A stretch of 64,000 bases of DNA, taken from a virus. Position 1 is the first letter of the stretch, and every line of letters starts with the position of its first letter. The notes under the pieces were generated by a model, which made no database searches, was not told the DNA's origin, and saw only the letters and a program-made list of their open reading frames with translations. Made by a program: the position numbers and the translations under genes. Shown here in pieces: positions 2,667 through 43,372 of this stretch. Where the stretch lies: IMG/VR virus record IMGVR_UViG_3300020183_000009, one strand, 5' to 3'.

Positions 2667-3256
2667 AACAATAATCCTTCAAAAGGTTCTCACTTAAACG
2701 TGTAATCTCAACGTTTTTTATATTGTGATTCTGACAAAATTATTTTCATATTTAATTAATACCTCATGGGTGGTCCCACAATCTTTACACACCTCCTCAA
2801 CCAAGATATATTCTTCATCCATATTACATATGATATTATAACACTATGATTTTGTCAAAAATTTTCCAGAAATTTTTTTTTCGATTTTGACCTTTTTTAG
2901 GGACAAAAGGTTTTTAGGGGGGAACTTATATATAAGGGGAAATTTTCCAAAAAATTTTAGAAAGTATTTTTTTAAACGTATACATTAATTTTGGGATTAA
3001 CCCCCATTTTTGGGGTGACCCCTCCCCTATATAGAGGGGGGATACGTAGGGGGGAGGGGGTGTACCCCCCCATATACCCCCATAGAGGGGGATAGGAGGG
3101 ACCTATTACATGGGGACATGACGGGAGATGTAATATCCCTCCCCTCCGTCTAATGGTCTCTAATAAGGTCATGTCATTTCAGGGACATATACAAATAAAC
3201 TTATCAACATGTCAGGATGTCATGTTAATAACTAATCGAATAAACATGGGGGAAAG

Positions 3257-3288
3257 TTTGGTGGTCTCAGATATAATCCGTACCTTTG
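3257..3288 (+). promoter_or_regulatory. Bacteroidota-type sigma70 promoter (TTTG-N20-TACCTTTG)
   Basis: Matches the -33/-7 consensus; no ORF immediately downstream. Confidence 0.7.
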
Positions 3289-3294
3289 TATTGT

Positions 3295-3420
3295 CAGTGG
3301 TTAAGACCGAGACGGGTTCGACAGAGAGACAGGTCGCAGAGGGTGGACTCCAACCTGCCTTATAGTTTTTAAAAGTAGGGACGTGATGGAGTCTACTCGG
3401 TCCCCATCTTCTGAATGGTT
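3295..3420. ncRNA. Candidate structured small RNA(s) between convergent promoters
   Basis: GC-rich; 12-bp complementarity 3341-3352/3387-3398; hairpins CAGGT/ACCTG and GGGAC/GTCCC; opposing TACCTTTG at 3427-3434. Confidence 0.45.
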
Positions 3421-3493
3421 ACACTACAAAGGTACGAAAAAAAAAATACATTTACTAATAGTATTTTAAATATATTATCCGTATCTTTGTAGT

Positions 3494-3943
3494 ATGAGAT
3501 TCCTATCACGTATCATAGAGTATTGTAATGTCATGTCCAAGTATGGTCATTACTCTCGTGTCACCGACCTTAGTTGTAGTGAACGTAGAGACCTTGCTCA
3601 GTTCTGTCTTGATTATTGTATCGAGAACATCGGTCTACCTAAACGTAAGTCTACCCCCAAGTTTTCAATTGTAAAGGGGAAGTTAGTTGGTACCTATGGT
3701 CAATACCATGATAATAAAATCTATGTGTACTATAATGAGTGTAAGACTGTTGGTTATTTTATCTTTACCTTTATTCATGAGTATGCTCACCACACTCAGA
3801 ACTTAAAGAACTATGATAAGGTTCTTAGTCGTGTGGGATATGAGAATCACCCATTGGAGATTGAAGCCAATGAGGTTGCTAAAGAATATAAACAAGACTG
3901 TCTTGAACAGTTCCGTAAATACATAATGTCATATGATGAGTAG
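3494..3943 (+). CDS. Zincin-like metallopeptidase
   Basis: HEYAH (HExxH) plus downstream HPLEIEA; TATCTTTG promoter at 3482-3489. Confidence 0.75.
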   Translation: MRFLSRIIEYCNVMSKYGHYSRVTDLSCSERRDLAQFCLDYCIENIGLPKRKSTPKFSIVKGKLVGTYGQYHDNKIYVYYNECKTVGYFIFTFIHEYAHHTQNLKNYDKVLSRVGYENHPLEIEANEVAKEYKQDCLEQFRKYIMSYDE

Positions 3944-40788: not shown

Positions 40789-41475
40789 ATGGAAATTCAA
40801 TTAACAGAGGAGGAAAAAAAGACATTAAAATTATTTGTCTATTATGTAAAATCATATGGTAAATCAAGTGTTTATAGTGAACATGTAGTTTATGATAACC
40901 AATTAGACTATTATAGTGGAGAATGGTATGGTCAAGGAAGTCCTGTACCTAGTTATAAAGAAATAGATGAATTAGTAGAATCTATTATTGATAGGTATGA
41001 TATTCTTGATGAGGTTGGTGGCGATAATGGTGATGGTAGAGTTATGTTTATTGTTGATTGTGATGATATGGAAATTGAGGTAGAGGTGGCTTCGTATATC
41101 TTAACAACTCGAGATTCAGGTGATACGGAAATAATTAGTGAAAAGTTTGGTGAATCAGGGACTGAATTAGTAGAGTTTATGAAATCTAAAGGTATCTCAG
41201 AAGGTAGAGTCGATTTCTCAGGTGGTGGTGACTCTGGAGAAATAATGGATTATATCCAATTTGGTAATAGTGGTGAACCGAATAAACCTTTATCTAGAGA
41301 TGTATTAGATACGTTATACACTTGGTTAGAAGACTTTTATGGCGGATGGGAAATAAATGAAGGTTCTCAAGGTTATTTTACTTTTTATAGTGGAGACAAT
41401 GAATGTGAATTATTTTTTCAAGAAAATTATGAAGAATCGGAATTAGATACCGTTTTATTCGCAAAAATACAATAA
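40789..41475 (+). CDS. DUF6878-like protein
   Basis: FSGGGDSG...GGWEINEGSQG; adjacent to the DUF6915-like gene. Confidence 0.6.
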   Translation: MEIQLTEEEKKTLKLFVYYVKSYGKSSVYSEHVVYDNQLDYYSGEWYGQGSPVPSYKEIDELVESIIDRYDILDEVGGDNGDGRVMFIVDCDDMEIEVEVASYILTTRDSGDTEIISEKFGESGTELVEFMKSKGISEGRVDFSGGGDSGEIMDYIQFGNSGEPNKPLSRDVLDTLYTWLEDFYGGWEINEGSQGYFTFYSGDNECELFFQENYEESELDTVLFAKIQ

Positions 41476-41480
41476 AATCA

Positions 41481-41507
41481 AAAACCCCTCCGAAAAGGGG
41501 TTTTTTT
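41481..41507. terminator. Bidirectional terminator
   Basis: aaaacccct..aggggtttt. Confidence 0.85.
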
Positions 41508-41511
41508 ATAT

Positions 41512-41666
41512 CTGTTCAAGTGAGGTCATAATGTCAGAATACAGAGTGTTAAGATTTGATTGATAACTGTTGAACGCTTGAATCTTGACTAAAGGACCGT
41601 ACTAAATCAACATCATAACATCGGTTCTGAACAATAGTTTGTAAACATCATCACTCAACTATCCCA
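41512..41666 (-). ncRNA. Candidate structured RNA 3' of the DIP1984-like gene
   Basis: Four nested stems (see findings). Confidence 0.55.
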
Positions 41667-41670
41667 CATA

Positions 41671-42108
41671 TTAAATTTGAGTTAGAGCATTGTGGGTATC
41701 CAACTCGTCTTGGATTGACTCAATCTCATCCTCCATAATTTTTACCACACTATCTCTTTCTACGATTGAAATTTCTGAGGTCATTACAGGTATATTTTCA
41801 CTACGTCTTGAGTAGTAATCTGTTGATGTACCTTCAGTACAGTTCAACATTTTGATTTTAGACACCAATGACTTCAATTCAGACAATCTGAAAATCTTGT
41901 CATACACTGGTGAATTCGCTTGGTGAATCTTTGTTTTCAATTCAACCAAATCATTGGTAAGTTTTTCAACTTTTTCCAACGACTCTGATGAAGAATATGG
42001 TCTTAGTGAACCTACCTCGACACTATTGTAGGATTGAGCTTTTTGTAGTTCTTCGGTAATTTCTTTAACCAATTTATTCTTCAACTTTAATGCTTGTTTT
42101 ACAGTCAT
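41671..42108 (-). CDS. DIP1984/DUF6847-like coiled-coil protein
   Basis: MTVKQALKLK..LKTKIHQAN..IQDELDTHNALTQI. Confidence 0.65.
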   Translation of the reverse strand: MTVKQALKLKNKLVKEITEELQKAQSYNSVEVGSLRPYSSSESLEKVEKLTNDLVELKTKIHQANSPVYDKIFRLSELKSLVSKIKMLNCTEGTSTDYYSRRSENIPVMTSEISIVERDSVVKIMEDEIESIQDELDTHNALTQI

Positions 42109-42162
42109 ATGTTGTTTTTTAATTTACTATTCAATGATAGGTGATAACCCCCAAAAGTCAAA

Positions 42163-42378
42163 TCATTTCTCGATAAACATGTTAGTGTTTGATACAGGGG
42201 TACGTAACACAGGAACAGGACTCTGCATTTCTTCGGTTCTATACATCACCTCATAATAACCCTCATGTACTTTAACTGTAGGTACGTTATTGTAACTCGC
42301 CAAAACTTGACTTTCTTCTTTTCTATCTGAGTAAAACTTAACAGTTTTTTCAGTCGTATTAAATACTAATGTTTGCAT
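42163..42378 (-). CDS. Hypothetical protein
   Basis: 71 aa ORF. Confidence 0.65.
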   Translation of the reverse strand: MQTLVFNTTEKTVKFYSDRKEESQVLASYNNVPTVKVHEGYYEVMYRTEEMQSPVPVLRTPVSNTNMFIEK

Positions 42379-42390
42379 ATTATTTTAATT

Positions 42391-42588
42391 TTAAATTTTA
42401 GTTTCAGTTACACATGTTCCCAATATGAATAGTTGGAATATCAGAAATATAATAATTAAAAATACATTATCAAATATTGACCATTGGGTTGGGTTTAAAT
42501 TATCTTCGAACCAAGATATTACCGAATACCATAACAATTGTTTAGATAGGTATTCTTTAACATTTAGTTCGTGTTTGTTGTCTTTCAT
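42391..42588 (-). CDS. Small membrane protein
   Basis: Hydrophobic C-terminal helix. Confidence 0.55.
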   Translation of the reverse strand: MKDNKHELNVKEYLSKQLLWYSVISWFEDNLNPTQWSIFDNVFLIIIFLIFQLFILGTCVTETKI

Positions 42589-42637
42589 ATAACAATAATA
42601 AATAAAAGGGGGTTAAACTAAACCCCCTTCTTGGGTA

Positions 42638-43372
42638 TTAAATCATTTTCAAAATGACTTCAGTTTTACCATCCCATTTGATGATACGGGATTTAGGAAC
42701 CCAAAACTCCATTTCACCGATTTCCTCAACTTTCGCTAAGTACTCGTTACGGAAACGTTCTGCTTGACTTGCGTCTGTGATATATTCAACACCCATGTGT
42801 TTAGCACATGTCTTACCCATTTTAGTTAACATTGAAAACTCATCAGTAAGTGTCTTAGCACAACACACACAAACATCTCCACGTTTAACCGTCATCTTAC
42901 CTGAGAACTTAACCGCCTTTGGTGATACTGCCAACACCTTAGTGATATCCAAAAGGATTGGGTTAAACTGTAGTCCGTATTGTTCTTTCATTTTTTGACC
43001 AACTGAACGTCCAACTTTAACTGTTTCACCAATAGTAGGTAGGTTCAATTTACGAGTATTTGCTTTGTTCTCGTCAGATTGGATTGTTCTGATTGCGGCG
43101 GAAACTTGTTTGTCAGAAAGTTTACCGTACTTCTCAAGTTTACTTTTCAACTCATTAACAAATGAGTTAGTACCTTGGTAGTCAGCAATAACTTTCAAGT
43201 CACCTGTCAATTCTACCTCTTTAGCTTCGGTAGGGTTAGATAAAATTTTCTCAACTGCTGATTTTTGATTTACGGTCAAAGAACCGTATTTTGTTAGAGC
43301 ATCCTTCATTTTAAGGATGAATGTGTTTTTTCCTTGATAATTTTTAACTTGTGTTGCGATGTCTGTTGTCAT
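42638..43372 (-). CDS. Early hypothetical protein with duplicated helical repeat and Zn-finger
   Basis: 2x Y.G.N.F...K..L.KYG.L...Q; CVCC..LTDE.S...MGKTCA; TATCTTTG at 43394-43401. Confidence 0.75.
   Translation of the reverse strand: MTTDIATQVKNYQGKNTFILKMKDALTKYGSLTVNQKSAVEKILSNPTEAKEVELTGDLKVIADYQGTNSFVNELKSKLEKYGKLSDKQVSAAIRTIQSDENKANTRKLNLPTIGETVKVGRSVGQKMKEQYGLQFNPILLDITKVLAVSPKAVKFSGKMTVKRGDVCVCCAKTLTDEFSMLTKMGKTCAKHMGVEYITDASQAERFRNEYLAKVEEIGEMEFWVPKSRIIKWDGKTEVILKMI

What the first reader, a model, noticed from the sequence alone, without database searches (positions are those of the whole stretch)
41512..42108. DIP1984-like gene followed by a ~150-nt nested-stem RNA: candidate protein-RNA module
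Seen: between the gene's stop and a terminator lies an ORF-free stretch with four nested pairings: 41651-41656/41518-41523 (with a G-U on the minus strand), 41625-41630/41534-41539, 41616-41620/41547-41551 and 41605-41610/41556-41561. They enclose a loop with repeated TCAA units (TCAAGATTCAAGCGTTCAACA on the minus strand). Inference: a co-transcribed structured RNA, possibly bound by the coiled-coil protein through the repeated motifs. I know of no described function for this pairing.
Basis: partly seen in the sequence, partly recalled or inferred. Interest (0 to 1): 0.72.

Follow-up and report, generated by a model that had tools for sequence, protein, structure and literature searches.

The report
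Phage heptad-repeat RNA with partner gene
Directly behind a small phage gene of unknown function lies a real, conserved, roughly 170-base folded RNA carrying seven evenly spaced short motifs; gene and RNA always travel together, so they are probably two halves of an undescribed protein-RNA particle.

Summary
The stretch between the stop codon (41673-41671) and the terminator (41505-41480) is a real, conserved non-coding RNA, window 41503-41676 on the minus strand.

all 23 base pairs exist. The window's own sequence folds no better than shuffles, and the four exact stems show no covariation.
- **What relatives show:** the two ends form a long closing rod. In 75 distinct sequences 89.7% of cells pair, against 54.6% when shuffled, and all 25 pairs have compensatory changes.
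- **Centre:** about 100 G-poor bases without conserved pairing, with three GAU units and then seven U(C/U)AA+NNN units spaced 7-8 bases apart.
- **Independent detection:** a covariance model built only from distant relatives finds the window's copy, and nothing else in 64 kb.
- **Linkage:** 94 of 94 homologous genes with enough downstream DNA carry the RNA, and 26 of 26 assessable RNAs found by an RNA-only pattern carry the gene. No other neighbouring gene is conserved.
- **Protein:** it has the DIP1984 fold (3KDQ, Z 13.2).
- **Databases and literature:** Rfam has no match. The closest published logic is VIPR (RAMP protein plus GGY/NN repeat RNA), which is a different family.
- **Function:** binding and function are untested.

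This scan has noted DIP1984/DUF6847-plus-RNA pairs before on other DNA.

The parts
42134..42161 (-). Promoter-like site TTGACT-16-TATCAT directly upstream of the gene
   Evidence: Consensus scan, 10 of 12 matches. This is a consensus match only, and the host's promoter type is unknown.
41671..42108 (-). 145-aa DIP1984-fold gene, a distant DUF6847 relative
   Evidence: ORF. NCBIfam NF038048 gives E 2.9e-4 and 21 bits against a cut-off of 70. Pfam PF20935 gives 18.2 bits against 27. The AF2 model has pLDDT 83.5. Best PDB match is 3KDQ: TM 0.77, and Z 13.2 with rmsd 2.9 A over 140 residues.
41503..41676 (-). Whole conserved RNA element, as matched by the covariance models
   Evidence: R1, built from 11 distant relatives only, scores 34.2 bits, E 2.9e-4, a full-length match and the only hit in the window. 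R2 scores 103 bits, E 4.5e-15.
41644..41671 (-). 5' strand of the closing rod P1; it begins at the last base of the stop codon
   Evidence: Duplex prediction and hand check: 21 pairs with 41535-41508. Covariation of the homologous helices in 75 sequences.
41661..41664 (-). GGAU, 5' half of the 4x4 purine-rich internal loop in the rod
   Evidence: GGAU/UGAA is the commonest loop pair (17 of 75); G15 is kept in 72% and A19 in 75% of sequences.
41606..41623 (-). Array of three GAU units (CGAUGUUAUGAUGUUGAU)
   Evidence: GAU columns are at least 80% conserved over 75 sequences, spaced 8 and 6 nt.
41589..41604 (-). UAGUACGGUCCUUUAG, a nearly invariant block in the window's own clade between the two arrays
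   Evidence: Invariant or nearly invariant columns in alignments A1 and A6. Also present in group G.
41544..41588 (-). Heptad tract: UCAA-GAU, UCAA-GCGU, UCAA-CAG, UUAU-CAA, UCAA-AUC, UUAA-CAC, UC
   Evidence: Motif count and 7-8 nt spacing. Unit-by-unit alignment across the family. Within groups the fixed positions diverge by 0.05-0.24 per site and the variable positions by 0.15-0.47.
41515..41518 (-). UGAA, 3' half of the internal loop
   Evidence: U282 is kept in 76% and A285 in 79% of sequences.
41508..41535 (-). 3' strand of the closing rod P1
41480..41505 (-). Intrinsic terminator; it reads as a terminator on both strands and also serves the convergent gene 40789-41475
   Evidence: 11-pair stem followed by a T run on the minus strand, 10 pairs on the plus strand. 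Relatives keep a terminator at this place, with compensatory changes.

Best explanation
The stretch is a phage non-coding RNA of about 170 nt, made as the tail of the DIP1984-fold gene's transcript (promoter-like site, gene, RNA, terminator).

Shown:
- Its two ends pair into a rod of about 21-30 bp that starts at the stop codon and ends just before the terminator.
- The rod holds a purine-rich 4x4 internal loop, GGAU/UGAA.
- The rod encloses about 100 G-poor nucleotides with no conserved pairing. These carry three GAU units and then seven units of a fixed tetramer U(C/U)AA plus three or four variable bases.
- Gene and RNA form an obligate two-part module, while everything around them changes.

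Inferred:
- The RNA is the partner of the protein. Several protomers bind the fixed tetramers in a 7-nt register and leave the variable bases exposed.
- The rod defines and protects the RNA's ends, or guides its excision from the messenger by a double-strand RNase.
- What the particle does is unknown.
For: - **Conservation:** the element follows the gene in 15 IMG/VR and 80 metagenome loci, down to 48% protein identity.
- **Rod, complementarity test:** each 5' end pairs better with its own 3' end than with those of other groups. Mean z is -2.2 per sequence and -2.9 per group, and the own partner ranks best in 11 of 21 groups.
- **Rod, covariation in group B alone:** 93.9% paired, 11 pairs with compensatory changes.
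- **Rod, covariation in 47 and 75 sequences:** 90.7% and 89.7% paired against 61.8% and 54.6% when shuffled; 316 and 568 double-change cells against 98 and 188; slid registers reach at most 51%.
- **Homology across groups:** model R1, built without the window's clade, finds the window copy at E 2.9e-4.
- **Linkage:** 94 of 94 genes with enough downstream DNA have the RNA, on the same strand. Of 27 RNAs found by an RNA-only pattern, 26 have the gene upstream and the 27th lies at a locus edge. No other gene is conserved.
- **Strand:** G-U pairs occur in the sense orientation only, and all hits are on the gene's strand.
- **Transcription:** RNA-library contigs from four studies cover the gene's end and the element, bridging the stop.
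- **Tract:**
- **Protein fold:**
- **Published precedent** for a phage protein that polymerises on a fixed/variable short-repeat RNA: VIPR (10.64898/2026.04.26.720920 and 10.64898/2026.04.26.720927).
Against: - No binding data exist.
- The protein is mildly acidic (pI 5.3-6.8). Only its N-terminal helix is basic, with invariant K4, K8, K10 and K12.
- The window's own rod has a G-G mismatch and is not the MFE: -28.9 kcal/mol with the rod enforced against -30.8.
- The CM-based alignments are fitted to the structure, which inflates pair counts. This is mitigated by the MAFFT-only group-B count and by the alignment-free duplex test.
- RNA-library contigs can contain DNA and show neither RNA ends nor strand.
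- Two bona fide chromosomal DIP1984 genes of Bacteroidota lack this RNA, so the pairing is shown here only for this phage-borne branch.
Confidence: 0.55

Rival explanations
1. The element is purely cis-acting in the 3' untranslated region. The rod is a processing or stability signal (cut by a double-strand RNase, or a barrier to 3' exonucleases) that sets the level of the upstream messenger. The protein may feed back on it, but no particle acts in trans.
For: The rod starts at the stop codon and ends at a terminator or at the next gene. The element is always on the gene's strand and directly downstream. Long imperfect stems with internal loops are classic RNase III substrates in phage messengers (established knowledge: T7 early messengers, lambda sib).
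Against: A stability element needs no 100-nt centre with motif positions more conserved than second codon positions (fixed positions 0.05-0.24 against codon position 2 at 0.07-0.24). In L014/L015 the unit sits inside a 24-tRNA array and ends 10 nt before tRNA-Glu, like a stable RNA gene. In L038, L068 and three IMG/VR loci a small ORF separates gene and RNA, yet the RNA is kept intact.
Confidence: 0.18
2. The RNA works with a host factor rather than with the neighbouring protein. It could be a sponge or decoy whose G-poor, evenly spaced UCAA units soak up a host single-strand RNA-binding protein or ribonuclease. The gene is linked only because the two are expressed together or act in the same pathway.
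For: The centre is G-poor (11% G) and unpaired, with regularly spaced pyrimidine-C motifs. The neighbouring protein is acidic. In some relatives the unit lies in tRNA arrays.
Against: Perfect two-way linkage with one gene, while all other neighbours change, is hard to explain without direct cooperation. No candidate host factor is identified.
Confidence: 0.12
3. The conserved thing is a DNA element rather than an RNA: spaced TTGA/TCAA sites for a DNA-binding protein, an origin, or a recombination site.
For: Short spaced repeats resemble iterons. The follow-up reports quoted in two earlier notes of this scan describe conserved DNA junctions that shuffle genes in this same phage.
Against: The long-range complementarity keeps G-U pairs that would be A-C mismatches on the other strand. 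Orientation relative to the gene never changes. The 7-nt spacing does not match the DNA helical repeat. RNA-library contigs cover the element.
Confidence: 0.03

Closest known systems
VIPR systems (Vipr protein plus vrRNA; bioRxiv 10.64898/2026.04.26.720920 and 10.64898/2026.04.26.720927)
   Same: - Mostly virus-encoded.
- A minimal locus of a small protein gene with an adjacent non-coding RNA of about 100-170 nt.
- The RNA holds a tract of short tandem units, each with fixed and variable positions, next to a conserved structured part.
- In VIPR the protomers polymerise along the repeats and expose the variable bases.
   Different: - Vipr is a RAMP (RRM) protein; this partner has the helical DIP1984 fold.
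- VIPR units are 5 nt (GGY/NN), 9-16 per RNA; here they are 7-8 nt, U(C/U)AA/NNN, about 7 per RNA.
- VIPR's NN are described as hypervariable. Here the variable bases change at about the synonymous rate, and more slowly in the window's clade.
- Here the tract is enclosed by a rod formed by the RNA's two ends, and each locus has one RNA.
- No target was found.
DIP1984 family / Pfam DUF6847 (PF20935, NCBIfam NF038048; PDB 3KDQ, function unknown)
   Same: Same fold over the whole protein: Z 13.2, rmsd 2.9 A over 140 of 145 residues, TM 0.77. A weak full-length profile match. Relatives at about 60% identity carry PF20935.
   Different: The score is below both curated cut-offs. A profile of the phage clade does not find 3KDQ by sequence. 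Two bona fide chromosomal members lack this RNA. No function is published for the family.
Orphan 7- and 8-nt fixed/variable arrays reported by a genomic language-model survey (bioRxiv 10.64898/2026.10.21.760802, clusters 156,623 and 8,581)
   Same: Fixed tetramers or pentamers alternate with variable trimers at a period of 7 or 8 nt, in intergenic DNA between co-directional genes.
   Different: - Those arrays are followed by a reverse-complement copy of equal size (a predicted beads-on-a-string fold), have no partner protein, and come from Patescibacteriota and Chloroflexota.
- Here only three GAU/UGA units face seven UCA units, no conserved pairing between them was detected, and a partner gene is always present.
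- Whether the families are related was not tested.
TRAP with the trp leader and HutP with the hut leader (Bacillus)
   Same: An oligomeric protein reads evenly spaced short motifs in an otherwise unstructured RNA. For HutP the period is about 7 nt (established knowledge, recalled, not tested here).
   Different: Those are cis-regulatory leaders upstream of operons, bound by beta-rich rings with triplet motifs (U/GAG, UAG). Here the RNA lies downstream of the gene, is closed by a rod, and the partner is helical.

Membership tests
DIP1984 family / DUF6847 | Sequence score above the curated cut-off of the family model | tested here: not met
   NF038048 scores 21 bits against a cut-off of 70. PF20935 scores 18.2 bits against 27.
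DIP1984 family / DUF6847 | Fold of the solved member 3KDQ over the whole length | tested here: met
   Foldseek TM 0.77/0.73, probability 1.0. VIA-align Z 13.2, rmsd 2.9 A, 140 residues aligned; the next match has Z 8.9 over 64 residues.
DIP1984 family / DUF6847 | Linked to recognised members through intermediate sequences | tested here: met
   Many homologues at 58-66% identity carry a precomputed PF20935 hit.
VIPR | The RNA's partner is a Vipr RAMP protein (RRM core, G-loop, thumb) | tested here: not met
   The only conserved neighbour is the helical DIP1984-fold protein.
VIPR | vrRNA made of 9-16 five-nt units GGY/NN | tested here: not met
   The units are U(C/U)AA plus 3-4 variable bases, spaced 7-8 nt, about 7 per RNA.
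VIPR | Variable positions are hypervariable between close relatives | tested here: inconclusive
   Variable positions diverge by 0.15-0.47 per site against 0.31-0.40 at synonymous sites. They are slower in the window's clade and about equal in three other groups.
VIPR | Protein and RNA form a filament that recognises DNA by a gapped code | not testable with these tools
   This needs biochemistry. A gapped search with the window's six variable triplets found nothing above the null inside the window.
Any Rfam 15 family | Covariance-model score at the gathering threshold | tested here: not met
   No hit in the whole window. With E up to 10, the best-scoring weak matches overlap the terminator and the rest are weak chance matches such as C/D-box snoRNAs; none is near its gathering score.
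Type III toxin-antitoxin (ToxIN-like) | Tandem RNA repeats of about 36-45 nt upstream of an endoribonuclease toxin gene | tested here: not met
   The units are 7-8 nt and lie downstream of the gene. The protein has a helical fold with no match to such toxins.
Beads-on-a-string arrays (10.64898/2026.10.21.760802) | An array of fixed n-mers followed by an equal reverse-complement array | tested here: inconclusive
   Three GAU/UGA units precede seven UCA units. UGA and UCA could pair, but the columns are invariant, so covariation says nothing, and the scan found only weak 3-pair stacks.

The most novel reading that the evidence does not exclude
The module is a second, independently evolved system of the VIPR kind. 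DIP1984-fold protomers polymerise on the seven fixed U(C/U)AA tetramers, and the exposed variable triplets together specify a nucleic-acid target by a gapped code. On this reading the large DUF6847 family would be a programmable RNA-guided recognition system in phages, and perhaps beyond them.
Probability: 0.12. Interest if true: 0.95.

Novelty: categorically new. Interest (0 to 1): 0.8.

Why it matters
- It assigns a first functional context, an obligate RNA partner, to a protein family with a solved structure but no known role. That family has at least 1,630 sequence clusters at 50% identity.
- It adds an uncatalogued RNA family that is widespread in large freshwater phages.
- The tract of fixed tetramers and variable triplets has the same formal layout as the recently described VIPR guide RNAs, but on an unrelated protein fold. 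That raises a directly testable question: has the repeat-tract, protein-polymer mode of RNA use evolved more than once?
- The locus is small, about 680 bp from promoter-like site to terminator, and could be expressed and pulled down as it stands.

Tried and rejected
- **Single-sequence folding:** no signal (z +0.10 and -1.6).
- **RNAalifold:** on MAFFT alignments of the window's clade it found only the terminator and a weak hairpin.
no covariation.
- **Rfam:** no match at the gathering threshold; at E up to 10 only weak matches, the best of which overlap the terminator.
- **tRNA or tmRNA reading:** ARAGORN finds none in the window. There is no T-arm or CCA end, although the phage is said to carry smpB.
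- **Small ORF in the element:** none of 40 aa or more, and relatives have indels not divisible by three.
- **PHROGs and PADLOC:** no PHROGs family, and only one weak PADLOC match (type II restriction enzyme, E 0.0013) for the gene.
- **INPHARED phages, blastn:** no match.
- **Core pattern in IMG/VR:** it found only contigs already held.
- **Genome collection:** only two MAG contigs, both carrying the RNA.
- **Conserved pairing inside the centre, including GAU/UCA:** none detectable.
- **Gapped target search** with the six variable triplets, skips of 0-5, both strands, within the window: best 12-14 of 18 matches, the same as permuted controls. Public collections were not scanned, because about three chance matches per pattern are expected.
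- **Profile search of PDB by sequence:** only chance hits (uL29 at E 0.16).
- **Literature on DIP1984, DUF6847, PF20935, 3KDQ:** nothing on function.
- **More distant relatives:** P0150 (38% identity) is not in IMG/VR.
- **Flanks in RNA contigs:** the RNA-library contigs laid do not cover the flanking genes. Relatives have different neighbours, so this says nothing about transcription limits.

Full report
**Setting.** The window has about 30% G+C and no tRNA or Rfam hit. Earlier notes of this scan call it a large T4-like phage. The exact protein of the finding occurs on 21 contigs, the longest 154,657 bp, and 18 lake-water DNA runs hold the stretch.

The gene 41671-42108 (minus strand, 145 aa) is preceded by a promoter-like TTGACT-16-TATCAT at 42161-42134. 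It is followed by 165 ORF-free bases and a terminator at 41505-41480 that reads as a terminator on both strands. That terminator also ends the convergent DUF6878 gene 40789-41475.

**Checking the observation.**
- They are not more than chance would give in this sequence alone. The 159 bases without the terminator fold at -30.8 kcal/mol against a shuffle mean of -31.2 (z +0.10).
- On 15 close relatives the four stems are 81% paired but show no covariation. 425 of 500 shuffles do as well, and stem 3 is broken in 9 of 15 sequences.

**What relatives show.** Fifteen IMG/VR loci and 80 metagenome loci encode relatives of the protein at 48-94% identity. Nearly all have a similar non-coding stretch directly after the stop codon. 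Its anatomy is as follows.
- **Rod (P1).** A G-rich segment right after the stop pairs with a segment 150-200 nt downstream. The sequences differ between clades but stay complementary: GGUUGGG/CCCAACC, GGAUUGGG/CCCAAUCC, GGAAGGUC/GACCUUCC, and AUAUCUG/CAGAUAU in the window's clade.
- **Internal loop.** A 4x4 loop, most often GGAU/UGAA, interrupts the rod.
- **Hairpin P2.** Many clades have an extra covarying hairpin; the window's clade lacks it.
- **Centre.** About 100 nt with only 11% G, holding three GAU units and then a tract of U(C/U)AA units.

**Statistics for the rod.**
- An alignment-free test compared each 5' end with its own 3' region and with those of unrelated groups. The own partner is better by 2.2 SD on average (2.9 SD per group) and ranks best in 11 of 21 groups.
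- On a MAFFT alignment of one clade (11 sequences) a hand-drawn structure is 93.9% paired, with 11 compensated pairs, against at most 51% in slid registers.
- Model R1, built from that clade alone, finds the window's copy at 41503-41676 on the minus strand: full length, 34.2 bits, E 2.9e-4, the only hit in 64 kb.
- On model-based alignments of 47 and 75 distinct sequences, 90.7% and 89.7% of cells pair against 61.8% and 54.6% in shuffles. Every pair has compensatory changes, and double-change cells number 316 and 568 against 98 and 188. These alignments lean towards the model, but they agree with the two tests above, which do not.
- An unbiased scan of all column pairs recovers only the rod helices. 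The centre has no conserved pairing.
- In the window the rod has 21 pairs (41671-41644 with 41535-41508) and one G-G mismatch. Enforcing it costs 1.9 kcal/mol relative to the MFE.

**Linkage.**
- Model R2 finds one RNA in each of the 94 loci that hold enough DNA after the gene, always on the gene's strand and directly downstream. The four loci without a hit end less than 115 nt after the stop.
- In the other direction, an RNA-only pattern pulled loci out of IMG/VR. Of the 100 that were scanned, 27 hold a model-verified RNA. Of these, 26 have the gene upstream, at 0-23 nt in most and 187 nt in three. The 27th starts at the edge of its locus.
- No other gene is shared by the loci. The next commonest real gene occurs in 25 of 96.
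- In L014/L015 the unit sits inside an array of 24 tRNA genes and ends 10 nt before tRNA-Glu. tRNA genes also flank it in L013, L042, L046, L075 and L093.
- Two bona fide chromosomal DIP1984 genes of Bacteroidota (168 and 137 bits) have no such RNA.

**Transcription.**
- The gap of 0-23 nt in most loci leaves no room for a promoter. In the five loci with an inserted ORF (L038, L068 and three IMG/VR loci) the gap is about 190-450 nt.
- Contigs from four metatranscriptome studies, all from relatives, cover the end of the gene and the element in one piece. One of them runs from 41791 to 41510 and stops at the terminator.
- Contigs cannot show strand, ends or level, and DNA carry-over cannot be excluded.

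**The tract.**
- U(C/U)AA occurs 6.3 times per element against 2.5 in shuffles. Spacings are 7 nt (107 cases) or 8 nt (31 cases).
- Seven units align across the family, ending in UUAAAACUC.
- The window's units are UCAA-GAU, UCAA-GCGU, UCAA-CAG, UUAU-CAA, UCAA-AUC, UUAA-CAC, then UC.
- Within clades the fixed positions diverge by 0.05-0.24 per site, at or below second codon positions of the gene.
- The variable positions diverge by 0.15-0.47 per site, against 0.31-0.40 at synonymous sites. They are close to the synonymous rate in three clades and constrained in the window's own.

**The protein.**
- Sequence models place it below the cut-offs for DIP1984 and DUF6847.
- The AlphaFold model (pLDDT 83.5) matches 3KDQ over 140 of 145 residues (Z 13.2, rmsd 2.9 A), far above all other chains.
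- Relatives at about 60% identity carry PF20935.
- The wider family has 1,630 clusters at E up to 0.001.
- The protein is mildly acidic, with a basic, invariant N-terminal helix.
- I found no published function.

**Interpretation.** That this is a real, conserved, structured RNA genetically tied to the gene I hold at about 0.95.
- **Main reading (0.55):** it is the protein's physical partner, with protomers reading the fixed tetramers in a 7-nt register. This rests on the exclusive linkage and on the fixed-plus-variable layout.
- **Precedent:** VIPR, where a RAMP protein polymerises on GGY/NN repeats and the NN bases read DNA. This module fails VIPR's defining features (fold, unit, period), so it is not a member; it may work in a similar way.
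- **Rivals:** a purely cis-acting processing or stability element (0.18), a decoy for a host factor (0.12), and a DNA element (0.03).
- **Guide reading:** a search for a gapped target of the variable triplets inside the window found nothing above the null.

**Prior sightings.** This scan's notebook holds many earlier notes of DIP1984/DUF6847 genes next to uncatalogued RNAs in phages, bacteria and archaea, some with 7-8-nt units. One of them led me to the VIPR preprints. I did not test those notes on their own DNA. A language-model survey reports orphan 7- and 8-nt fixed/variable arrays without a partner protein; their relation to this family is open.

Noticed in passing
L014 1072-5820 (and the identical L015): An array of 24 tRNA genes in a 160-kb viral contig. 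The DIP1984-like gene (3001-3429) and its RNA (3442-3632) are embedded between tRNA-Ser and tRNA-Glu. One gene is called with a two-base anticodon by ARAGORN.
   Followed up: partly
L038 1936-2121; L068; L124, L173, L205: In a few relatives a small ORF is inserted between the gene and the RNA: about 187 nt in L038, L124, L173 and L205, and about 450 nt in L068. The RNA itself stays intact.
   Followed up: partly
homologues P0189, P0205, P0209, P0218: JGI names several homologues 'Asp-tRNA(Asn)/Glu-tRNA(Gln) amidotransferase C subunit'. Their only Pfam hit on record is PF20935, so the name is probably a chance similarity between helical proteins.
   Followed up: no
window 41480-41505: One hairpin reads as an intrinsic terminator on both strands. 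It closes both the RNA unit and the convergent DUF6878 gene 40789-41475.
   Followed up: partly
window 42604-42631 (minus strand): A second strong terminator follows gene 42638-43372. The two small ORFs 42391-42588 and 42163-42378 may therefore form their own short unit just ahead of the DIP1984-like gene.
   Followed up: no
RNA run X19, record 2: A 555-nt metatranscriptome contig matches only the conserved centre (41568-41622) and differs on both sides. It is probably the same RNA family from a more distant phage.
   Followed up: no
window 41644-41657: GUGAUGA followed downstream by CUGA (41533-41536) mimics C and D boxes, which explains the weak snoRNA matches in the permissive Rfam search. 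The motif is not conserved in relatives.
   Followed up: yes
L107 (Polynucleobacter MAG) and L108 (Bacteroidetes MAG): The only two hits in the species-genome collection are short MAG contigs that carry both gene and RNA. They are probably phage contigs binned with bacteria, so they are weak clues to the host.
   Followed up: partly
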